UHGV virus genome: UHGV-0046263 | DNA length: 36,252 nt | Strand: one strand, 5' to 3' | Source of the DNA: a virus | Shown here: one piece after another, positions 1,000 to 14,192 of the stretch | How the letters are laid out: each line of letters begins with the position of its first letter | How positions within the stretch are numbered: position 1 is the stretch's first letter | The notes under the pieces: model-generated | Databases searched by the model: none | Seen by the model: only the letters and a program-made list of their open reading frames with translations | Told to the model about the DNA's origin: nothing | Made by a program: the position numbers and the translations under genes

Positions 1000-1995
1000 T
1001 TATGGACGCATTATGGACATTCCTGACACCGGGTTAAGAGTCACAGCATCTTGTAAGAAATCCGGTGCAAAGTGTGCGTAGGTCATAGTTTGCTGAATGT
1101 TAGAATGACCCAGGATGCGCTGCAATGTGATTATGTTACCTCCATTCATTATAAAATGTGTGGCAAATGTATGCCTCAAAACATGTACTGCTTGTCCGTC
1201 AGGTAAATCGGGTTTTACTTCCCTGAGAGCGTTACGCACTTTGTAGTAACTGGCATTAAAAAGCCTGCCTGAATTTTTGGTCTTGATCCTTTTAATCAGG
1301 TCCTGCGAAACGGGAATTGTCCTGCGCTTTCCGTTTTTAGTTTTCATAAACGTAACCATCTGGTTAATGATGTGTTCAGCTTTCAAATTAGACACTTCAC
1401 TCCAGCGTCCACCAGTAGAAAGGCAGACCAGAGTTGCATTTAACTCATCACCATCAAGCATGGATAACAGCCGCGTAATCTCTTCACTGGACAAAAAAGC
1501 CATTTCTGTAACAGCTTCACGTAACCGCTTAACCTCACGGAACGGGTTGTGAGAGTGGTATTCACCGGCGTCAATTAACTTGGTGAACATCCCGCTCATT
1601 ATTGCCAGATGCCGATTTACGCTGGCTGGTTTTAGACCATCGTTCATCATTACAACTCGATAATCAGTTATCGTTTTCTTTGTTAACTGGTCAGCTCTGG
1701 ACACCCCCATTTCTGCAAATTTGGCGATTATTGTCGTCAAACGCCCCCGTTCAATATTTCCACGCTCATGTGATTTTCCGTGATATATCCACCATCTGCC
1801 TAACAACTCTGTAAGAGTTCGGCGGTCGGCTGGCTTCTCCAGCCACTCTTTGTTGTGGTAGTTAACCAGCACATGACGTTCGAATGCTTGAGCTTCACCT
1901 TTAGTTTTAAATTTCCGCCTGATACGTTTTCCATCTGCACCCTGCGGTCTGACGTCCACTTCATAACGACCATCATCGAGCTTTTTAATAGACAT
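1000..1995 (-). CDS. int: Tyrosine integrase, P2 Int family
   Basis: 331 aa; N-terminus MSIKKLDDGRYEVDVRP and C-terminal HxLRHTFATHF...ITLQRILGH...Y catalytic region resemble P2 Int; GGAGGG ribosome-binding site upstream. Confidence 0.9.
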   Translation of the reverse strand: MSIKKLDDGRYEVDVRPQGADGKRIRRKFKTKGEAQAFERHVLVNYHNKEWLEKPADRRTLTELLGRWWIYHGKSHERGNIERGRLTTIIAKFAEMGVSRADQLTKKTITDYRVVMMNDGLKPASVNRHLAIMSGMFTKLIDAGEYHSHNPFREVKRLREAVTEMAFLSSEEITRLLSMLDGDELNATLVCLSTGGRWSEVSNLKAEHIINQMVTFMKTKNGKRRTIPVSQDLIKRIKTKNSGRLFNASYYKVRNALREVKPDLPDGQAVHVLRHTFATHFIMNGGNIITLQRILGHSNIQQTMTYAHFAPDFLQDAVTLNPVSGMSIMRP

Positions 1996-2088
1996 AAAGC
2001 CCTCCGATGACGCTGTTTACTTCTACTACTTGAAAATTAATGCAATTTTCTTTCGTACATTTACTGCACACATATGCTGAATAAATCG

Positions 2089-2400
2089 TCAGCCAGTCTT
2101 TTGGTCTGAGTGGTGCAAGGTTGTTGAGTCTTGCCCAATGTGCGCGAGCGCCGGGGCTATTTGTCCGCCAGCGGGATCAGTTTCATCAAACATGAACCAG
2201 TCACGGTACTTGCGAAATCTTTCTGGCTTGAAAAATTTCATACCTGCGTCAAAAGACATCTTTACTTTTCCCTGCTCATATCCAGCATAGGTGTTGTAGT
2301 TAATTCCAGTTAATTCAGCAACTTGCTTCCTTGTCATTCTTTCTGATTCCCGAATAAGTGCGAGTTTCTCTGCTTGAGATGTGATTTGTGTATTTGACAT
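2089..2400 (-). CDS. C: Immunity repressor, P2 C-like
   Basis: About 103 aa from MSNTQ; HTH region (QVAELTGINYNTY) and C-terminal GQIAPALAH...QKTG resemble P2 C. Start chosen at the internal Met by analogy with 99-aa P2 C; the ORF could extend to 2448. Confidence 0.7.
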   Translation of the reverse strand: MSNTQITSQAEKLALIRESERMTRKQVAELTGINYNTYAGYEQGKVKMSFDAGMKFFKPERFRKYRDWFMFDETDPAGGQIAPALAHIGQDSTTLHHSDQKTG

Positions 2401-2504
2401 GAATTGTCGTATCTCGTAATTTATGTTGTATGCGACACGCCAGAACAACGCAGAGCGGCTTCAAATAGCTCTGGTTGAATGGCACCAAAGTTGAGGATAT
2501 CAAA

Positions 2505-2801
2505 ATGAGTATTGGATCAGAAATGAATAACGATGTTGGAGAAAAAGTATCTGATCTCACAAAAAGTAAAAAATGTGACATCAAACTTGCAGCCGCACCG
2601 TCGGATTTGCTCTCGAAAGAGGGTTTTGCTCTTTACATCGGTAAGACGCCTCGCGCTGTTGCTGAAATGGCGAAAGTAGGCAAGTTACCAGCCTTTTATA
2701 TGACGGACCCATTAAAGCCGGGCGGTCATGCTGAGTTATGGATTAATCGCCGTGAGTGGGACAAGTACGCAGCCCAGCTAGTTGATGAAGCTCCGACATA
2801 A
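2505..2801 (+). CDS. cox: Cox-like excisionase / transcriptional regulator
   Basis: Divergent from C; the KLPAFYMTDP...WINRREW core resembles P2 Cox; GAGGA ribosome-binding site upstream of the ATG at 2505. Confidence 0.7.
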   Translation: MSIGSEMNNDVGEKVSDLTKSKKCDIKLAAAPSDLLSKEGFALYIGKTPRAVAEMAKVGKLPAFYMTDPLKPGGHAELWINRREWDKYAAQLVDEAPT

Positions 2802-7053: not shown

Positions 7054-8892
7054 ATGAGCGAGTTTGATGTTTTTTCTATTTCAGTTGATGATTTTAAAAA
7101 AAGTGAATACGCCAGTATATTATCATCGCCAAGAAGTTATTCTCATTTTGATATGGAGTCTTATTTTGTTCAGTTGTTGTCATCTTACAAGCTAAAAAAC
7201 GATGTAAGTTCTTGGCGGCTTTGCTATTTATTACGTGCGTTGTTTAATTTTAAATTTTCTAGGTCTGGTGATATTATCGGTTTTGAGCCAAAAATCATTC
7301 TCTATCCTGAGAGGGGCTATAGGCCTTCAGATTATAAGGAGAGTTTTTCAACAATATTAACTTGTATTAAAGAAAACTCCGATAATCCTTATATTATATC
7401 TAGGGTGTGTGATGTTTTATGGATAAATAACCGTAAGGATATAGACTCTGCCAATAAAGCAATAGAGTCATATTCTCTAATGGTTAATGATGCTTGCGAT
7501 ACTTTAATAGAAAAACAAGAGTCAGGTGATATCCATATTTTTGATGTTGTTGACTGCTTGGATAGAGGTATCGCAATATCGCGCATGCTTATTGGCAGGA
7601 AAAAACAACTACAAGGGGGGATAGTTGATTCGACATTAAGGTTATATCATGTATTAATAGACTCTGGTATATTCACCGGTGTATTAAGAGTTTCTGAAAT
7701 TCTTTATAAGAATAATTTATTGTGTCCCTTGCAATTGGCTGAGAATGCAGAAAAGATAGCTGATGAGCATTGTGGAGCGTCTTATTTTGATGCAGTGAAA
7801 AAATTGTTTTATTTTGCGTCTGAATTATATGTTAAAAACGATATGGAAGAGCAAGGAAGACGGTGCAGAATTAAAGCGTCAGAAATAACATTGGCTCAAT
7901 TTGAACAGTCTTCATCTTCAATATTGAAGGCTCATTGGTTAAGAGTTGCTCTTGGCGAATTTAGAGCAATTGGTGGAATGAATGAAGAAATTAAAAAGAT
8001 TAGAGAGGAATTGAATTCTATTCGAGATCAAATCAATGATGAAATGCACTTCTTTGCAATACCAATGGATCTTAGTGATGTTATCGCTCAGAAAGAGCAT
8101 GTTTATAATCAATTGGATTTCTCAAGGGTAATTAAAACTTTAATTGCTAGATTTAAGATTGTAAGTGCCAGTGAAATTATGGAAAGAGCTCGTTCCGATG
8201 CTAAAAAACATTTTTTTCTTAATATGAGTGAAACGGTTGTTTATGATGATAGAGGGCGCGTTGTAGCAAGTCGTTCACCTTTGGATCCTGCGGGGGATAT
8301 AAGTTTAAATGATGCTTGTGCAAATTATTTAAGAACTAGTAACATTGAGCATCAGGTCTATGTTTGTGGTGAGTTTGAAGTCGTTAGGCAAAGTGTGTTG
8401 GCTAGGTATTCATTAAATGAAAATACATTTGACCCAATCTCACAACAAAGTGCATTTGTTCCACCTGGGTATGCAGAAATATTTTCTTTGGGGTTTTATA
8501 AGCTTTGGCAGGGAGATTATGTGTCTGCCTGTTATTTGTTATTGCCGCAATTGGAGAATTCAATTAGATGGATTTTAGAATTAAGAAGAAAAGAAACAAC
8601 GAAAATAGATGTGTCGCTTTTTGAGGAGGCTACTAGCCTATCTCAAATGCTTGCAAATTATAGGAGTGAAATGGAAGGTGTTTTTGATAGTGATCATGTA
8701 TTGACTATGGATTTATTGTTCAATATGAAAGGTGGTGCTGCAATTAGACACACGATGGCTCATGGCAGGTATACTGTAAATCATTGTTATCAACCAACTT
8801 CAGTTTTTGCCTGTGTCTTTATCTTTTATTTAACTTGTTTGCCTTTATTTAGTGTATGGGAAGATAAAGTTGAACCTTATCTGGCTGATTAA
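7054..8892 (+). CDS. AT-rich cargo protein, 612 aa, unknown function; possible C-terminal HEPN-like domain (candidate abortive-infection/defence effector)
   Basis: Strong ribosome-binding site AAGGTGAGG 4 nt upstream of the ATG; long uninterrupted ORF; AT-rich relative to the phage backbone; sits where tin/old lie in P2; C-terminal LENSIRWIL...AAIRHTMAHG contains an Rx4H motif. Confidence 0.7.
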   Translation: MSEFDVFSISVDDFKKSEYASILSSPRSYSHFDMESYFVQLLSSYKLKNDVSSWRLCYLLRALFNFKFSRSGDIIGFEPKIILYPERGYRPSDYKESFSTILTCIKENSDNPYIISRVCDVLWINNRKDIDSANKAIESYSLMVNDACDTLIEKQESGDIHIFDVVDCLDRGIAISRMLIGRKKQLQGGIVDSTLRLYHVLIDSGIFTGVLRVSEILYKNNLLCPLQLAENAEKIADEHCGASYFDAVKKLFYFASELYVKNDMEEQGRRCRIKASEITLAQFEQSSSSILKAHWLRVALGEFRAIGGMNEEIKKIREELNSIRDQINDEMHFFAIPMDLSDVIAQKEHVYNQLDFSRVIKTLIARFKIVSASEIMERARSDAKKHFFLNMSETVVYDDRGRVVASRSPLDPAGDISLNDACANYLRTSNIEHQVYVCGEFEVVRQSVLARYSLNENTFDPISQQSAFVPPGYAEIFSLGFYKLWQGDYVSACYLLLPQLENSIRWILELRRKETTKIDVSLFEEATSLSQMLANYRSEMEGVFDSDHVLTMDLLFNMKGGAAIRHTMAHGRYTVNHCYQPTSVFACVFIFYLTCLPLFSVWEDKVEPYLAD

Positions 8893-9053
8893 TGGAAGTT
8901 GATTTAGGTATTTTGGCATTTATCTTTCTGCGTGCAATATGTGCATGGTTTTGCATGTGCCGGAGTTGCATGTTCCGGCCGTGCGTCCGCCAGGACGGGC
9001 GTGGCTCAAAAGCGGTATTGCACCTGCATTAAAACCGCCCCACGAAGCGGGCG

Positions 9054-9072
9054 GGCGAGGCGGGGAAAGCAC
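9054..9072. other. cos site (19-nt cohesive end, P2/P4 type) within a GC-rich structured packaging region (about 8930..9110)
   Basis: Exact match to GGCGAGGCGGGGAAAGCAC, the P2 cohesive end as I recall it; flanked by repeated TTGCATGT motifs and GC-rich hairpins. Confidence 0.55.
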
Positions 9073-9110
9073 TGCGCGCTAAACGATGTCGCTGGCTTGC
9101 AGTTACCCGG

Positions 9111-9139
9111 TTGAAATTCTTATTTTTTTGTTGCATTAT
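9111..9139 (+). promoter_or_regulatory. Sigma70-like promoter candidate (TTGAAA, 17-bp spacer, CATTAT) upstream of the RT module
   Basis: Hexamers and spacing read directly from the sequence; no experimental support. Confidence 0.3.
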
Positions 9140-9146
9140 TCTTAGC

Positions 9147-9395
9147 GCACCAGCGATTCGCTTGGTATGCGGCAGTCAACAACATTAAATTGTCAGTTTT
9201 TGCTTTTACAAAAAAGCGTCCACTATGGACCTATCAGCGAGGCCCCACCGTCGTCAACTACGATGGTGCCGTAGCCGACGACATTACGTACGGTCGAAAG
9301 ATAGCAGAGGCTGTTGCTGACAATTGTTGATGTAAGCATCTCTGCTGTTCCACCCTTGAGTATGGGAAGACCGTACGTAACTTTGAATTTGAATG
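9147..9395 (+). ncRNA. Candidate structured ncRNA upstream of the RT (possible retron msr/msd)
   Basis: About 250 nt non-coding between the promoter candidate and the RT start, with hairpin GCTTTT-ACAA-AAAAGC (9202..9217), a 13-bp imperfect stem (9250..9262 / 9270..9282) and a perfect 12-bp inverted repeat TTACGTACGGTC / GACCGTACGTAA (9284..9295 / 9369..9380) ending 17 nt before the RT ATG. Boundaries are not defined. Confidence 0.3.
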
Positions 9396-9397
9396 GT

Positions 9398-10588
9398 ATG
9401 TTTATGGATAAATTTAAACCATACAGCAAATCCAATGCTCCTATCACAACACTTGAAAAGTTGTCAAAGGCTTTATCGATTTCTGTTGAAGAGCTTAAAG
9501 CTATTGCAGAATTATCATTAGATGAGAAATATACTCTAAAAGAAATTCCCAAAATTGACGGAAGCAAACGGATTGTCTACTCCCTACATCCTAAAATGAG
9601 ATTATTACAGAGTAGAATTAATAAACGTATTTTTAAGGAATTGGTTGTTTTTCCTTCATTTTTGTTTGGTTCAGTTCCCAGTAAAAATGATGTTTTAAAT
9701 TCTAATGTCAAACGTGACTATGTTTCATGTGCAAAGGCTCATTGTGGAGCAAAAACAGTTCTCAAGGTGGATATAAGTAATTTTTTCGATAATATCCATA
9801 GAGATCTGGTTAGGAGCGTGTTTGAGGAGATATTGCATATTAAGGATGAGGCTCTTGAATACTTGGTGGATATATGTACTAAGGATGATTTTGTCGTACA
9901 GGGGGCCTTAACATCAAGCTATATAGCAACTTTGTGTTTATTCGCTGTTGAAGGGGATGTGGTAAGACGTGCGCAGAGGAAAGGACTTGTTTATACGCGT
10001 TTGGTAGATGATATTACCGTGTCATCTAAAATAAGTAATTATGATTTTTCTCAAATGCAAAGCCATATAGAGAGGATGCTTTCTGAGCATGACTTGCCGA
10101 TAAATAAGCACAAAACAAAAATATTTCACTGTTCATCTGAACCTATAAAAGTACATGGTTTAAGAGTTGACTATGACTCACCTCGACTACCATCCGATGA
10201 AGTCAAAAGAATCAGGGCATCTATACATAATTTGAAATTACTGGCGGCAAAAAATAACACAAAAACAAGTGTTGCATACAGAAAAGAATTCAATAGATGT
10301 ATGGGGAGAGTGAATAAGCTTGGCCGTGTTGGGCATGAAAAATATGAATCATTCAAGAAACAGTTGCAGGCAATAAAACCGATGCCATCTAAAAGAGATG
10401 TTGCTGTGATTGATGCAGCTATAAAAAGTTTAGAGTTGTCGTATTCGAAAGGTAATCAAAATAAACATTGGTATAAAAGAAAATATGATTTGACGAGATA
10501 TAAGATGATTATTCTTACTCGCTCTGAATCATTTAAAGAAAAACTGGAGTGTTTTAAATCTAGATTGGCATCTTTAAAACCATTATGA
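9398..10588 (+). CDS. Retron-type reverse transcriptase (about 396 aa from the ATG at 9398)
   Basis: RT motifs in canonical order: LSKALSISVEEL, GSKRIVYSLHPKMRLLQ, CAKAH (NAxxH-like), LKVDISNFFDNI, QGALTSSYIATL, YTRLVDDITVS (YADD box reads LVDD), INKHKTKI, VHGL (VTG-like). Start uncertain (TTG 9314, ATG 9362, 9398 or 9404). Confidence 0.85.
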   Translation: MFMDKFKPYSKSNAPITTLEKLSKALSISVEELKAIAELSLDEKYTLKEIPKIDGSKRIVYSLHPKMRLLQSRINKRIFKELVVFPSFLFGSVPSKNDVLNSNVKRDYVSCAKAHCGAKTVLKVDISNFFDNIHRDLVRSVFEEILHIKDEALEYLVDICTKDDFVVQGALTSSYIATLCLFAVEGDVVRRAQRKGLVYTRLVDDITVSSKISNYDFSQMQSHIERMLSEHDLPINKHKTKIFHCSSEPIKVHGLRVDYDSPRLPSDEVKRIRASIHNLKLLAAKNNTKTSVAYRKEFNRCMGRVNKLGRVGHEKYESFKKQLQAIKPMPSKRDVAVIDAAIKSLELSYSKGNQNKHWYKRKYDLTRYKMIILTRSESFKEKLECFKSRLASLKPL

Positions 10589-11292
10589 ATGCAAATATTA
10601 GACTTCTCAAATATATTGTCGGTGTGTCGTCAGCTCTTTTTTTGATTTTTTCGCTAATTTCTCTTTTTGAAACTATTCAGAATGAAAAGCTATATGAGCG
10701 TGATATATGCTTCGATAGCCAGTGCTTAAAATTTTTTGCGGAAAAAACATCTGGTATAGTAATGTATTTTCAGGCGTTTGGATGGCTTATAACAACTTTT
10801 GTTACCGTTTTTGGTGTTATGATTGCTTTGATGACATATAACGCTGGAGTTAAAAATAATAATAATAGTAATTACACTAGTCATCTGACGATGTTTAGAG
10901 AATTTGCAAGTGCTGAGTTAACTAAAAGAAGTAGCATCTATCCAGAGAAAGTTAATTTTTTTAGATGGTATAGGGTTATGTTCCCTGAAGCGCAAGGCGG
11001 TGATATATCTGTTTCGAGAGATTATCTAGAAATAATATCTAGAATCAAATGTGTTATTGAGGAAGCCAATGCACATATTACAGAGGAAAATAAAGACTAT
11101 AAATATAAAACTCATCAGAGAAAAATGATGGCTGTTTTGGATGAAATCGGTATATCGATTAGTAATGGGCCCAAAAATATTTTTATTGAGGTTGAGAGTC
11201 AAATTTTGGATTATATCGATACTATTAATTTGTCATTTTGTCACTCCTCATCAGTGATAGAATTAAGTAGAGTAAAAAGGAAGTATATATAG
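10585..11292 (+). CDS. Two-transmembrane-helix protein, 235 aa, translationally coupled to the RT (candidate effector)
   Basis: ATGA start/stop overlap with the RT; hydrophobic segments IVGVSSALFLIFSLISLF and FQAFGWLITTFVTVFGVMIALMTY; AT-rich. Confidence 0.75.
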   Translation: MNANIRLLKYIVGVSSALFLIFSLISLFETIQNEKLYERDICFDSQCLKFFAEKTSGIVMYFQAFGWLITTFVTVFGVMIALMTYNAGVKNNNNSNYTSHLTMFREFASAELTKRSSIYPEKVNFFRWYRVMFPEAQGGDISVSRDYLEIISRIKCVIEEANAHITEENKDYKYKTHQRKMMAVLDEIGISISNGPKNIFIEVESQILDYIDTINLSFCHSSSVIELSRVKRKYI

Positions 11293-11334: not shown

Positions 11335-12354
11335 TTATAAGTTATAATCAAGGGATTTTATGACTTCCATATCTAACCATTCATTTATTGACTTTATTCT
11401 CTCCTGTAATGGAGTGAGTTCATTGCGGACAAAGACCTTTGCCACTTTTTCAATATCTCCTAGTGACCCGACATTCTCCGGCTTACCGCCCATCAACTGA
11501 AAGGGGATGCGGTGTGCGTCCAGGAGATCTGCGGCGCTGACTTTTTTGATATTAAAAAAATCGTCCTTCGTCGCCACTTCACTGAGGGGGATAATTTTAA
11601 TGCCGTCGGCTTTCCCCTGTGGGGCATAGAGAAACAGGTTTTTAAAGTTGTTGCGGCCTTTCGACTTCACCATGTTTTCGCGAAGCATTTCGATATCGTT
11701 GCGATCCTGCACGGCATCGGTGACATACATGATGTATCCGGCATGAGCGCCGTTTTCGTAATACTTGCGGCGGAACAGCGTGGCCGACTCATTCAGCCAG
11801 GCAGAGTTAAGGGCGCTGAGATATTCCGGCAGGCCGTACAGCTCCTGATTGATATCCGGCTCCAGCAGGTGAAACACGGAGCCGGGCGCGAAGGCTGTCG
11901 GCTCGTTGAAGGACGGCACCCACCAGTAAACATCCTCCTCCACGCCACGGCGGGTATATTTTGCCGGTGAGGTTTCCAGTCTGATGACCTTACCGGTGGT
12001 GCTGTAACGCTTTTCCAGAAACGCATTACCGAACACCAGAAAATCCAGCACAAAGCGGCTGAAATCCTGCTGGGAAAGCCACGGATGCGGGATAAATGTC
12101 GAGGCCAGAATATTGCGTTTGACGTAAATCGGCGAGCTGTGATGCACGGCAGCACGCAGGCTTTTCGCCAGACCGGTAAAGCTGACCGGCGGCTCATACC
12201 ATCTGCCGTTACTGATGCACTCGACGTAATCCAGAATGTCACGGCGGTCGAGTACCGGCACCGGCTCGCCAAAGGTGAATGCCTCCATTTTCGGGGCGCT
12301 GGCGGTCATTTTTTTTGCCGCAGGTTGCGGTGTTTTCCCTTTTTTCTTGCTCAT
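11335..12354 (-). CDS. Q: Portal protein
   Basis: 339 aa, position and orientation as P2 gpQ; start overlaps the P stop. Confidence 0.85.
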   Translation of the reverse strand: MSKKKGKTPQPAAKKMTASAPKMEAFTFGEPVPVLDRRDILDYVECISNGRWYEPPVSFTGLAKSLRAAVHHSSPIYVKRNILASTFIPHPWLSQQDFSRFVLDFLVFGNAFLEKRYSTTGKVIRLETSPAKYTRRGVEEDVYWWVPSFNEPTAFAPGSVFHLLEPDINQELYGLPEYLSALNSAWLNESATLFRRKYYENGAHAGYIMYVTDAVQDRNDIEMLRENMVKSKGRNNFKNLFLYAPQGKADGIKIIPLSEVATKDDFFNIKKVSAADLLDAHRIPFQLMGGKPENVGSLGDIEKVAKVFVRNELTPLQERIKSINEWLDMEVIKSLDYNL

Positions 12355-14126
12355 CAGTAAAACTCCAGAATGGTGGATGTCAGCGGGGTGCTGATACCGG
12401 CGGTGAGTGGCTCATTTAACAGGGCGTGCATGGTCGCCCAGGCGAGGTCGGCGTGGCTGGCTTCCTCGCTGCGGCTGGCCTCATAGGTGGCGCTGCGTCC
12501 GCTGCTGGTCATGGTCTTGCGGATAGCCATAAACGAGCTGGTGATGTCGGTGGCGCTGACGTCATATTCCAGACAGCCACGGCGGATGACGTCTTTTGCC
12601 TTGAGCACCATTGCGGTTTTCATTTCCGGCGTGTAGCGGATGTCGCGCGCGGCGGGATAGAACGAGCGCACGAGCTGGAACACGCCGACACCGAGGCCGG
12701 TGGCATCAATACCGATGTATTCGACGTTGTATTTTTCGGTGAGTTTGCGGATGGATTCAGCCTGAGTGGCAAAGTCCATGCCTTTCCACTGGTGACGCTC
12801 AAGGATCCTGAATTTGCCACCGGCCACCACCGGCGGTGCCAGTACCACGCATCCTGCGCTGTCGCCACGGTGTGACGGGTCGTAACCAATCCATACCGGT
12901 CGGGAGCCGAACGGATTTGCGGCAAACGGCGCATAGTCTTCCCATTCTTCCAGCGTGTCGACCATGCAGCGTTGCAGCTCCTCAAACGGGAACACCGACG
13001 CCTTGTCGTCAACAAATTCACACATGAACAGGTTTTTAAAATCGTCGGCGCTGTTTTCGCGTTTGAGCTGCTCAATGTCGAACAGCGTGCAGCCGCCTTT
13101 CAGGGCGTCCTCAATGGTGACAATCTGTCGCCACTGGCCGTCCGCACAGAGAAGCCCACCGGCAAGGGCGTTATGACTGACGTCGATTTCCACGCGTTCG
13201 GCGGCGCTGGCGCGTCCCCGGTTGAACAGTTCACCCGACCAGAACGGGTAGGCGTCGTGTGCCAGCGTGGACGGGGTGGAGAAATAGGTCGAGCGCAGGT
13301 GACTCTGTGAGGCCATACCTGATGCCACCTTACGCAGTACCTGAAAATTCGGGATCCAGAAAATCTCGTCGACGTACAGGTCGCCGTTATGGCTCTGCGC
13401 GGTGTTGGAGTTGGTGCCGAGAAAAATCAGTTTTGCGCCGTTATTGCCCAGGACAATCGGGTCACCGGTCAGGTCAACGTCAACCAGACGGGCAAAGGCG
13501 ATGATGTATTCGCGGAACACATACGCCTGCGTTTTACTGGCCGACAGAAAAATCTGGTTATGACCGGTTTTCAGGGCGCGCAGCAGCGCCTCGCGGGAAA
13601 AATAAAACGTCGCGCCAATCTGGCGGGATTTCAGGATATCGCGGATGCGGTGCTCAAGCCCGGCGCGATACCAGTGCAACTGATATTCGAAAGACTGCTC
13701 AAAGAAAATCTGCTCCAGCTTTTCGATGGCCTCGTCACTGAAAAAATTCTTTTTCGGTTTGCGCCGCCCGCCTTTGTTGCGGTTAGCGACGTTCGGATTA
13801 AGGTCTGCCTCGTTGCCGGTCTGGCTGTAGCGGTTGACCCGTGCCAGTCGTTCAATCTGGCGTCCCAGCAGGTCAATTTCCTTGAAGTCACCGCCGGTTT
13901 TCTGCGGTTTGATGATGAGCTGGGTCAGCCGCGCTTCCAGACTCATTTCGACACGGCTGATGGGGGCAACGCTGTCCCAGCCGTCGCGCTGTTTCCAGCT
14001 CTGCACCGTCGGGCGTTTCATCTGCAACATGGCGGCAATCTGCGGCACGGAAAACCCCTGCCAGTACAGCAGCGCCGCCTGACGACGCGGGTCGTGTAAA
14101 AGAGTGGTGTCTGTGGTGATGGTCAT
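12354..14126 (-). CDS. P: Terminase large subunit (ATPase)
   Basis: 590 aa from MTITTDTTLL (same length as P2 gpP); GAGGT ribosome-binding site; the longer ORF to 14156 is less likely. Confidence 0.9.
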   Translation of the reverse strand: MTITTDTTLLHDPRRQAALLYWQGFSVPQIAAMLQMKRPTVQSWKQRDGWDSVAPISRVEMSLEARLTQLIIKPQKTGGDFKEIDLLGRQIERLARVNRYSQTGNEADLNPNVANRNKGGRRKPKKNFFSDEAIEKLEQIFFEQSFEYQLHWYRAGLEHRIRDILKSRQIGATFYFSREALLRALKTGHNQIFLSASKTQAYVFREYIIAFARLVDVDLTGDPIVLGNNGAKLIFLGTNSNTAQSHNGDLYVDEIFWIPNFQVLRKVASGMASQSHLRSTYFSTPSTLAHDAYPFWSGELFNRGRASAAERVEIDVSHNALAGGLLCADGQWRQIVTIEDALKGGCTLFDIEQLKRENSADDFKNLFMCEFVDDKASVFPFEELQRCMVDTLEEWEDYAPFAANPFGSRPVWIGYDPSHRGDSAGCVVLAPPVVAGGKFRILERHQWKGMDFATQAESIRKLTEKYNVEYIGIDATGLGVGVFQLVRSFYPAARDIRYTPEMKTAMVLKAKDVIRRGCLEYDVSATDITSSFMAIRKTMTSSGRSATYEASRSEEASHADLAWATMHALLNEPLTAGISTPLTSTILEFY

Positions 14127-14192
14127 GAATACCTCGCCGTGATGAATACACGGCAAGGCTACTGAGTCGCGCCCTGCGATTCGCTAAGGTGC

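What the first reader, a model, noticed from the sequence alone, without database searches (positions are those of the whole stretch)
9111..9397. Promoter-like element and nested hairpins upstream of the RT: candidate msr/msd ncRNA
Between cos and the RT start lies a sigma70-like promoter (TTGAAA-17-CATTAT, 9111..9139) followed by about 250 nt without a convincing ORF. It holds a GCTTTT-ACAA-AAAAGC hairpin (9202..9217), a 13-bp imperfect stem (9250..9282) and a perfect 12-bp inverted repeat (9284..9295 / 9369..9380) enclosing smaller stems and ending 17 nt before the RT ATG. Retron ncRNAs are about this size, directly precede the RT and are built from inverted repeats. I could not assign a1/a2 or the priming G with confidence.
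Basis: partly seen in the sequence, partly recalled or inferred. Interest (0 to 1): 0.7.

Follow-up and report, generated by a model that had tools for sequence, protein, structure and literature searches.

The report
Known retron Ec48 non-coding RNA gene
The promoter and nested hairpins upstream of the reverse transcriptase are the already-described non-coding RNA gene of the anti-phage retron Ec48 (Retron-Eco6), although comparison with 36 relatives shows the folded RNA is larger and more knotted than the version in current use.

Summary
This is the msr/msd non-coding RNA of a retron, but a known one: Retron-Eco6 (Ec48), type IV, RT plus 2TM effector, next to cos in a P2-like prophage.

The published Eco6 ncRNA maps to 9125-9310 with no substitutions. 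Its sequenced RT-DNA starts opposite C9291, and 48 nt from there ends at 9244.

The promoter holds its position in 31 of 38 relatives, and homology to a non-phage relative begins at its -35 box. P2 phages without the RT share only cos (9019-9080).

Covariation in 37 sequences supports all the stems. The perfect 12-bp repeat (H3) has 11 of 12 pairs with compensatory changes. With H4 and a sequence-conserved hairpin H5 it forms a three-way junction reaching 70 nt beyond the ncRNA in use. A long-range helix, H2, crosses it as a pseudoknot or alternative fold.

The annotated 5' "a2" arm lies inside the promoter and shows no cognate-specific pairing; its partner strand pairs downstream instead. The priming G therefore stays unassigned.

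Novelty: already known. The refined architecture is a modest, testable addition.

The parts
9025..9072 (+). P2-type cos (right cohesive end). It marks the left border of the cargo site and is not part of the retron.
   Evidence: Matches the 'cosR; right cohesive end' feature of phage P2 NC_001895.1. RT-less P2-like phages share only window 9019-9080.
9111..9139 (+). Sigma-70 promoter of the retron operon: -35 TTGAAA at 9111-9116, 17-nt spacer, -10 CATTAT at 9134-9139. The inferred transcription start is about 9144-9147.
   Evidence: It is the only consensus match in 8900-9500. Homology to the non-phage E. asburiae locus begins at GTTGAAAT. The best -35/-10 match ends 12-14 nt before the first hairpin in 31 of 38 relatives. 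The start site itself is inferred, not measured.
9150..9164 (+). H1, the 5' hairpin, with an invariant GCG-NNN-CGC apex.
   Evidence: 6 pairs, 95% of cells paired, 4 pairs with changes on both sides.
9167..9196 (+). 5' strand of the long-range helix H2, in three segments: H2a 9167-9170, H2b 9175-9182, H2c 9190-9196.
   Evidence: It pairs with 9317-9339. All 17 counted pairs have changes on both sides, with 76-92% of cells paired. Duplex energy is -22.1 kcal/mol.
9202..9217 (+). SL-A, an msr-type hairpin. G9202 is nearly invariant.
   Evidence: 5 pairs, 95% of cells paired, 4 pairs with double changes.
9218..9230 (+). SL-B, the second msr-type hairpin.
   Evidence: 95.5% of cells paired.
9244..9291 (+). 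msd template, reverse transcribed from C9291 leftwards into the 48-nt msDNA. The msDNA sequence is the minus strand.
   Evidence: The census RT-DNA (data of Palka et al.) begins GTACGTAATG, the complement of ...C9291. Only that 5' end is read from the data; the 9244 end is my count of 48 nt from it, the printed RT-DNA being a 159-nt read-through that reaches 9132. The DNA fold gives a 13-bp hairpin at -11.1 kcal/mol. Relatives have variable hairpins of 45-69 nt at this position.
9284..9295 (+). It overlaps the first 8 template bases.
   Evidence: It pairs with 9369-9380; 91% of cells paired and 11 of 12 pairs with double changes. RNAalifold predicts it independently.
9298..9309 (+). H4 5' arm, which lies within the 'a1' of the ncRNA in current use.
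   Evidence: It pairs with 9340-9349. Cognate duplexes average -15.1 kcal/mol against -5.9 for non-cognate ones.
9309..9313 (+). GGCUG hub between H4 and H2. G9309 is invariant; G9310 and G9313 are at least 90% conserved. Positions 9310-9312 may pair with the 5'-terminal WGC (helix P0, tentative).
   Evidence: Invariant columns are. For P0, 86% of cells are paired, with AU:12 and UA:10 at one pair.
9317..9339 (+). 3' strand of H2. It lies in the apical loop of the H3/H4 hairpin, so H2 crosses H3/H4 as a pseudoknot or an alternative fold.
9340..9349 (+). H4 3' arm.
9353..9366 (+). H5, a small hairpin CCC-UUGAGUAU-GGG. It has the most conserved sequence in the RNA and includes the AUG at 9362.
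   Evidence: A 16-nt exact match occurs in Pseudomonas loci whose RT is only 47-49% identical.
9369..9380 (+). H3 right arm.
9398..10588 (+). Retron RT of type IV (Ec48 RT). It has LVDD at 202-205, CAKAH in place of NAXXH, and VHG in place of VTG. Start is 9398 (RefSeq) or 9404.
   Evidence: PADLOC RT_IV 8e-177. Motifs are and match the description of RT-Eco6 in PMC6868368. Millman's D216/D217 equals D204/D205 plus the 12-aa annotated extension.
10585..11292 (+). Ec48-family 2TM effector.
   Evidence: PADLOC 2TM_IV 4e-85. NCBIfam retron_Ec48_2TM, 226.7 bits. Two hydrophobic segments start at about residues 5-14 and 58-68 in 19-residue windows.

Best explanation
The interval holds the promoter and the non-coding RNA gene (msr-msd) of Retron-Eco6 (Ec48). 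This is a type IV retron inserted between cos and the portal gene of a P2-like prophage.

Shown or taken from the literature:
- A sigma-70 promoter at 9111-9139 drives one transcript that carries the structured RNA, the RT and the 2TM effector. The promoter is shown by conservation; the start at about 9145 is inferred.
- The RT copies the msd segment leftwards from C9291 and stops near 9244-9247. This gives the 48-nt (45-nt by sequencing) msDNA with a 13-bp DNA hairpin. RNase H1 sets the stop.
- The RT is needed for defence, and the 2TM protein is the effector that kills the cell. Inhibition of RecBCD by lambda Gam or T7 gp5.9 triggers cell death. How the complex is held silent before infection is inferred by analogy with other retrons; Palka et al. 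found the Eco6 effector non-toxic when expressed alone.

Added here by comparison with relatives: the conserved fold runs from about 9144 to 9381, roughly 240 nt, not 9125-9310. It consists of H1, the long-range helix H2, two msr hairpins, a variable msd hairpin, and a 3' three-way junction (H3/H4/H5) that pairs with the start of the template and with the so-called a1.

Inferred only: H5 and the junction recruit or position the RT next to the start of the template. Which nucleotide primes is not settled.
For: - RT_IV 8e-177 and 2TM_IV 4e-85; retron_Ec48_2TM equivalog; RefSeq product name in phage pro147.
- Published Eco6 ncRNA equals 9125-9310 with 0 substitutions; RT-DNA equals the complement of 9132-9291.
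- Kong primers match exactly.
- RT motifs CAKAH, VHG and DD numbering fit the published RT-Eco6.
- The promoter keeps its position in 31 of 38 relatives.
- Covariation: 89.2% of cells paired against about 40% when partners are slid; 492 double-change cells against 87-118; 0 of 500 shuffles reach the observed values.
- RNAalifold on contiguous sequences finds H3, H4 and H5, with 21 of 23 pairs compensated.
- The region travels with the RT in non-phage contexts and is absent from RT-less P2 phages.
- Defence function and the RecBCD trigger: Millman et al. preprint. RNase H1 and RT-DNA sequencing: PMC8989520.
Against: - No Rfam family matches. That only shows this ncRNA type is not in Rfam.
- A canonical 5' a2 arm is not supported. 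The annotated one lies in the promoter spacer and -10 and pairs no better with its own a1 than with foreign ones (-5.2 against -4.7 kcal/mol).
- The reported RT-DNA start lies inside helix H3, not at the end of a closing stem.
- No G at a canonical position is invariant.
- I could not read the original paper (Mao et al. 1997), so the experimentally mapped branch point is unknown to me.
- The transcription start is inferred from the promoter, not measured.
Confidence: 0.93

Rival explanations
1. Non-canonical initiation. The 48-nt msDNA is not made as textbooks draw it. There are three variants.

(a) H2 is the real a2/a1 stem. A near-invariant G at its inner end primes (G9202, opposite G9313 in the GGCWG hub). 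Synthesis starts near C9311, and the first 20 nt or so are trimmed in RecBCD-proficient cells.

(b) The priming nucleotide lies downstream of the template, on the H3 right arm (G9369 or G9373). The a1-like strand 9292-9309 is held by H4 plus GGUC/GACC.

(c) Synthesis is self-primed from a 3'-OH made by cleavage after C9372, as reported for the sister retron Se72.
For: - The a1 strand pairs specifically with the downstream strand, not with the upstream a2.
- The a2 lies inside the promoter.
- H2 is the only covarying 5'-3' closing helix, and G9202 and G9313 are at least 90% conserved.
- The RT-DNA 5' end (opposite C9291) sits directly 5' of the conserved GGUC that pairs with GACC.
- Read-through RT-DNA runs to 9132, through every G of the 5' half.
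- Type VI Retron-Vpa2 msDNA gains 23 nt at its 5' end when RecBCD is inhibited.
- Se72 is reported to lack an apparent priming G and an observed 2'-5' branch.
Against: - Ec48 is counted among the retrons with a priming G in the review's sequence logo, and Kong et al. mark one by alignment.
- Positions 9373 and 9369 are not invariant G: 9373 is A in 20 of 37 sequences, and 9369 is G in about 33 of 37.
- There is no evidence here for a longer Eco6 RT-DNA species.
- Palka et al. list Eco4 and Eco9, not Eco6, as unbranched.
- The three sub-models exclude one another.
Confidence: 0.3
2. The stretch from 9314 or 9362 to 9397 is protein-coding. It would be an N-terminal extension of the RT (the annotated 408-aa form, MGRPYVTL...) or a leader peptide, and its conservation would be protein conservation.
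For: - The ORF 9314-10588 is open.
- Published and Logan annotations start the RT at ATG 9362.
- The AUG is conserved in 39 of 45 aligned relatives.
Against: - From that AUG the frame is open into the RT in only 6 of 39 relatives. Elsewhere it gives ORFs of 2-84 codons in all three frames.
- The arms covary as RNA helices.
- The GAG lies only 2 nt before the AUG.
Confidence: 0.04
3. The repeats belong to the phage: cos or packaging accessory sites, or a terminator of the neighbouring phage operon, unrelated to the RT.
For: The region adjoins cos at 9025-9072. A terminator-like site is scored on the minus strand at 9230-9218.
Against: - RT-less P2-like phages share only 9019-9080.
- The same RNA, with its promoter, accompanies the RT in chromosomal, non-P2 contexts in Enterobacter, Pseudomonas, Marinobacter and others.
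Confidence: 0.01

Closest known systems
Retron-Eco6 (Ec48), type IV retron (Mao et al. 1997; Millman et al. 2020; Palka et al. 2022; Khan et al. census)
   Same: It is the same element. The ncRNA is identical over 9125-9310 and the RT-DNA matches. RT numbering and motifs agree. The 2TM effector is the equivalog. An identical 361-nt region occurs in 57 of 5,426 complete E. coli genomes and, at 99.7%, in phage pro147.
   Different: Nothing differs in sequence. What differs is the description. The ncRNA in use stops at 9310 and starts at 9125. Conservation points instead to a start near 9145 and a fold that reaches 9381. The annotated RT start (9362) is probably an RNA motif, not a start codon.
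Retron-Eco1 (Ec86), the canonical msr-msd
   Same: A promoter stands directly upstream. Short msr hairpins are followed by a variable msd hairpin. The ncRNA lies immediately 5' of the RT. A TTAGC motif sits near the 5' end, as at the Ec86 branch G.
   Different: In Ec86 a plain a2/a1 stem closes the RNA, with the branch G at its end and synthesis starting next to a1 (census entry). Here the strand 3' of the start pairs with a downstream strand. A separate long-range helix (H2) crosses it, and a 3' three-way junction is conserved. The Rfam families give no match.
Type VI Retron-Vpa2 hybrid RNA (10.1101/2025.10.22.683967)
   Same: It belongs to the same RT clade 3. Its RNA is long and multi-armed, extending beyond the msr-msd, and its 3' part folds back onto the first arm. 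It also has a link to Gam and RecBCD.
   Different: Vpa2 encodes a small toxic peptide inside the RNA and has an HTH protein. It shows no msDNA at baseline, and direct repeats act as a proposed riboregulator. Here there is no embedded conserved ORF, no direct repeat of the template near an RBS, and msDNA is made constitutively.
Type V Retron-Sen1 (Se72)
   Same: It is the closest experimentally studied RT: 25% identity to RT-Eco6 in the review's table. It is also triggered by Gam.
   Different: Se72 is reported to lack a priming G and a 2'-5' branch and to self-prime. It has a cold-shock-like partner instead of a 2TM protein.

Membership tests
Retron (msr-msd ncRNA + RT + effector) | [quoted passage not shown] | tested here: met
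   PADLOC RT_IV 8e-177; all best hits are retron RT models. Region X reads CAKAH and region Y reads VHG, the same departures reported for RT-Eco6.
Retron (msr-msd ncRNA + RT + effector) | Structured ncRNA next to the RT, conserved and covarying among relatives | tested here: met
   60 pairs in 12 helices, 89.2% of cells paired against about 40% when partners are slid, 0 of 500 shuffles. RNAalifold agrees.
Retron (msr-msd ncRNA + RT + effector) | a2/a1 inverted repeats that close the msr-msd | tested here: inconclusive
   The annotated a2 (9125-9141) lies in the promoter and shows no cognate-specific pairing. A covarying closing helix does exist (H2, 9167-9196/9317-9339), but its inner end is 20-25 nt from the reported RT-DNA start.
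Retron (msr-msd ncRNA + RT + effector) | Conserved priming guanosine at the end of a2 | tested here: inconclusive
   The TTAGC G (9145/9147) is G in 30 of 37 sequences and appears paired (P0). G9202, G9309, G9310 and G9313 are at least 90% conserved or invariant. No assignment fits all the data.
Retron (msr-msd ncRNA + RT + effector) | Variable msd hairpin that templates a short ssDNA | tested here: met
   Relatives have 45-69-nt variable hairpins at this position. The published RT-DNA maps here, and the DNA hairpin is -11.1 kcal/mol.
Retron (msr-msd ncRNA + RT + effector) | Production of msDNA with a 2'-5' branch | not testable with these tools
   Literature only: a 48-nt msDNA (Mao 1997, cited) and RT-DNA sequencing (PMC8989520). 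The original branch mapping could not be read.
Type IV retron / Ec48 family | 2TM membrane effector directly downstream of, or overlapping, the RT | tested here: met
   The effector gene at 10585-11292 overlaps the RT stop. PADLOC 2TM_IV 4e-85; NCBIfam equivalog at 226.7 bits against a cut-off of 65; two hydrophobic segments.
Rfam retron/msr families | Match to a curated covariance model | tested here: not met
   There is no retron family among hits up to E = 10 in 8800-9700, and no gathering-score hit in the whole window.

The most novel reading that the evidence does not exclude
The functional type IV retron RNA is a roughly 240-nt pseudoknotted molecule (9144-9381). Its initiation site is built by downstream strands (H3/H4/H5) and the long-range helix H2, not by the annotated 5' a2.

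In the boldest version, reverse transcription starts at the invariant GGCWG hub near 9311. The familiar 48-nt msDNA would then be the 5'-trimmed form seen only while RecBCD is active, as in the sister type VI retron, which gains 23 nt when RecBCD is inhibited. That would give a physical signal by which Ec48 senses RecBCD inhibition.
Probability: 0.15. Interest if true: 0.65.

Novelty: already known. Interest (0 to 1): 0.27.

Why it matters
As a finding, this re-discovers a well-studied defence retron, so it matters little in itself.

The comparison does yield two practical points. First, the ncRNA boundaries used for Eco6 engineering (9125-9310) include promoter DNA. They leave out the conserved partner strands of H2, H3 and H4 and the H5 hairpin. 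This could bear on the low editing rate reported for Eco6 (0.2x Eco1). Second, the annotated 408-aa RT start is probably an RNA motif.

If the non-canonical initiation reading held, it would make directly testable how Ec48 detects RecBCD inhibition, a question open since 2020.

Tried and rejected
- **Rfam.** An E-value search of 8800-9700 and a gathering search of the whole window found no retron family.
- **Original papers.** Mao et al. 1997 (PMC179752) and the Se72 self-priming paper (PMC11114809) are not held.
- **Full-text search.** Searching for msd sequence strings found nothing.
- **Supplements.** Those of Kong, Palka and Simon give primers and plasmid names but no branch position.
- **Upstream a2 x a1 pairing.** Rejected: there is no cognate specificity, and the window's duplex is -5.8 kcal/mol against -15.6 for the downstream partner.
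- **Coding reading of AUG 9362.** Rejected.
- **Priming G on the H3 right arm.** Not conserved.
- **G9274 of the conserved GUAG as branch.** Rejected because the RT-DNA reads through it.
- **Type-VI-like direct repeat.** None between the template and an RBS.
- **Phage packaging sequence.** Rejected.
- **mafft-qinsi structural alignment.** Not available.
- **Abi-P2.** I first suspected this P2-borne, protein-primed RT. It was rejected because all top PADLOC hits are retron RT models.

Full report
**What is there.** The window is a P2-like prophage. Portal and terminase genes lie on the minus strand at 11335-14156. The P2 right cohesive end matches 9025-9072. Directly after cos come a 396-aa RT (9398-10588) and an overlapping 235-aa protein (10585-11292).

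The RT scores 8e-177 on the PADLOC type IV retron RT model, and the second protein scores 4e-85 on 2TM_IV. NCBIfam calls the latter the Ec48-family effector equivalog, at 226.7 bits against a cut-off of 65. RefSeq uses that product name in phage pro147, which carries the cassette at 99.7% identity. The RT has LVDD, CAKAH in place of NAXXH, and VHG in place of VTG. These are the oddities the Simon et al. review lists for RT-Eco6. Millman's catalytic D216/D217 equal D204/D205 here plus the 12 residues of the longer annotation.

**Checking the observation.** Every element is at the stated coordinates.
- The promoter is the only sigma-70-like match in 8900-9500.
- The 258-nt leader folds better than all 200 shuffles (z = -3.7).
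- The GCTTTT hairpin, the 13-bp imperfect stem and the perfect 12-bp repeat are all real.

**Identity with the known retron.** The ncRNA printed for Retron-Eco6 in the census supplement (PMC10849725) aligns to 9125-9310. It has no substitutions and three single-base gaps in homopolymer runs, which I attribute to machine reading of the PDF. The RT-DNA listed there aligns to the complement of 9132-9291.

That field is sequencing-based. For Eco1 it gives the true 85-nt product, and the Eco6 data are those of Palka et al.. So the RT-DNA 5' end lies opposite C9291. Counting 48 nt from there ends at 9244. Palka et al. report a 3' end three bases shorter than the original report, which would put it at 9247 if that report ended at 9244. 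Kong et al.'s primers for the replaceable Ec48 loop match 9235-9259 and 9257-9279. The same 361 nt are 100% identical in 57 of 5,426 complete E. coli genomes.

**Is it phage packaging sequence?** No. P2-like phages without the RT share only window 9019-9080. A 75%-identical RT in an Enterobacter asburiae chromosome sits between a chemoreceptor gene and unrelated genes. It has the same leader at 82% identity, and the homology begins exactly at GTTGAAAT, the -35 box. Two further close relatives sit in other contexts.

**Promoter.** I fetched 43 type IV relatives from species-representative genomes (35-57% RT identity, loci L002-L044). In 31 of 38 usable upstream regions the best -35/-10 match ends 12-14 nt before the conserved G of the first hairpin. 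Several have a perfect TTGACA; -10 boxes read TAnnnT; the spacer is not conserved. The inferred transcript starts at about 9144-9147, 3-6 nt before hairpin H1. This is an inference, not a measurement.

**Secondary structure.** I made a 37-sequence alignment of the two well-aligned parts, 9141-9232 and 9280-9384, joined with the variable msd left out. On it I counted a structure of 60 pairs in 12 helices.
- 89.2% of cells are paired, against 34-42% when partners are slid.
- 492 cells have changes on both sides, against 87-118 when slid.
- No shuffle out of 500 reaches any observed measure.

The helices, in window coordinates:

| Helix | Strands | Note |
|---|---|---|
| H1 | 9150-9155 / 9159-9164 | 5' hairpin |
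| H2a | 9167-9170 / 9336-9339 | long-range |
| H2b | 9175-9180 / 9326-9331 | long-range |
| H2c | 9190-9196 / 9317-9323 | long-range |
| SL-B | 9218-9220 / 9228-9230 | second msr hairpin |
| H4 | 9298-9309 / 9340-9349 | 9301-9302 left unpaired |
| H5 | 9353-9355 / 9364-9366 | small conserved hairpin |

RNAalifold run on untouched contiguous sequences finds H3, H4 and H5 on its own, with 21 of 23 pairs compensated. In Pseudomonas it reads AGGUUUGGCCA/UGGCCAAAUCU, quite unlike the E. coli sequence.

H3, H4 and H5 form a three-way junction. H2 pairs the 5' part of the RNA with the apical loop of the H3/H4 hairpin. H2 and H3/H4 therefore cross. They are either a pseudoknot or two alternative folds. 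The nested-only energies are -82.9 kcal/mol for the H3/H4 fold and -74.5 for the H2 fold. A three-pair helix between the 5'-terminal WGC and the invariant GGCWG hub (P0) has some covariation (AU:12, UA:10) but is tentative.

Between SL-B and H3 every relative has 45-69 nt of variable hairpins, as expected of an msd.

**What does not fit the textbook picture.** The ncRNA in use implies an a2 arm at 9125-9141 paired with an a1 at 9296-9310. Three observations argue against this.
- That a2 lies in the promoter spacer and -10.
- Across 34 relatives the upstream region pairs with its own a1 no better than with foreign a1 strands: -5.2 against -4.7 kcal/mol, median rank 0.44.
- The same a1 pairs with the downstream strand 9338-9352 at -15.1 against -5.9 kcal/mol, with 25 of 34 cognate pairs in the best 5%. 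For the window the figures are -5.8 and -15.6.

The census authors say they assign ncRNAs by folding and by looking for an inverted repeat and a G near the start. The boundary is therefore not an experimental one.

The RT-DNA start, C9291, sits 8 nt inside H3. It is directly 5' of the conserved GGUC that pairs with GACC. No G at a canonical position is invariant:
- the TTAGC G is G in 30 of 37 sequences;
- G9373, opposite C9291, is A in 20 of 37;
- G9202 and G9313, which flank the inner end of H2, and G9309/G9310 are at least 90% conserved or invariant.

I could not read Mao et al. 1997, so I do not know where the branch was mapped. Two reports on sister retrons make a non-canonical start thinkable. 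Type VI Vpa2 msDNA gains 23 nt at its 5' end when RecBCD is inhibited. Se72 is described as lacking a priming G and an observed branch. I keep these as a rival at 0.3, not as a conclusion.

**The AUG at 9362.** The published and several automatic annotations start the RT here (MGRPYVTL...). The AUG lies in H5 and is present in 39 of 45 aligned relatives. The frame runs into the RT in only 6 of those 39; elsewhere it opens ORFs of 2-84 codons in any frame. Its conservation is that of an RNA motif. The RT more likely starts at 9398 (RefSeq) or 9404, where the closest relatives have GGTGAAATTATGGA.

**How it works.** From the literature, for this same element:
- The RT and the 2TM effector are needed for defence.
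- Escape mutants of lambda and T7 hit the RecBCD inhibitors Gam and gp5.9.
- Triggering leads to abortive infection.
- RNase H1 sets the RT-DNA 3' end.

My inference is that the sequence-conserved H5 and the junction next to the template start act as the RT's recognition and positioning site, and that H2 ties the msr half to it.

**Verdict.** The novelty class is "already known". The refined fold, the unsupported a2 and the doubtful RT start are modest, testable additions.

Noticed in passing
window 7054-8892 (+): A 612-aa protein just upstream of cos matches the PADLOC candidate defence family PDC-S39 (2e-68) and Pfam DUF7380. It has no NCBIfam hit. Its 3' end and the sequence up to cos are 99.4% identical to the P2-EC46 variable-region record AM157366.1. 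This prophage therefore carries a second candidate defence cargo, on the other side of cos from the retron.
   Followed up: partly
L001 (phage pro147 NC_028896.1) 1244-2788, minus strand: At the position of the PDC-S39-like gene, pro147 carries a different gene annotated as a 515-aa RNA-directed DNA polymerase. That phage therefore has two RT genes flanking cos.
   Followed up: no
window 9362-9364 and 9398/9404: The annotated 408-aa RT start (AUG 9362) is a conserved part of hairpin H5. It is in frame with the RT in only 6 of 39 relatives. The published RT-Eco6 N-terminus (MGRPYVTLNLNG) is probably not translated.
   Followed up: yes
window 9271-9274: A GUAG motif lies inside the reverse-transcribed template. 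A9273 and G9274 are at least 95% conserved across type IV relatives, although the surrounding msd is variable. Its role is unknown.
   Followed up: no
window 9230-9218, minus strand: The terminator scan scores GTCCATAGTGGAC plus a T-run on the minus strand. This is SL-B followed by the A-run of SL-A read backwards. It is most likely a by-product of the plus-strand RNA structure.
   Followed up: partly
window 9035-9054, minus strand, and 8931-8947, plus strand: Two more terminator-like hairpins flank cos. One is G+C-rich (CCGCCCGC...GGGGCGG) and lies inside the cos region. They may end the convergent phage transcripts. This was not examined.
   Followed up: no
L041, L037/L038, L032, L034, L036, L039, L043: Eight of the more distant type IV relatives (Acinetobacter, Pseudoalteromonas, Colwelliaceae and others) aligned poorly in the leader. 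Six of them lack the AUG at the H5 position. They were left out of the covariation counts, so the fold is shown for the majority clade, not for all type IV retrons.
   Followed up: no
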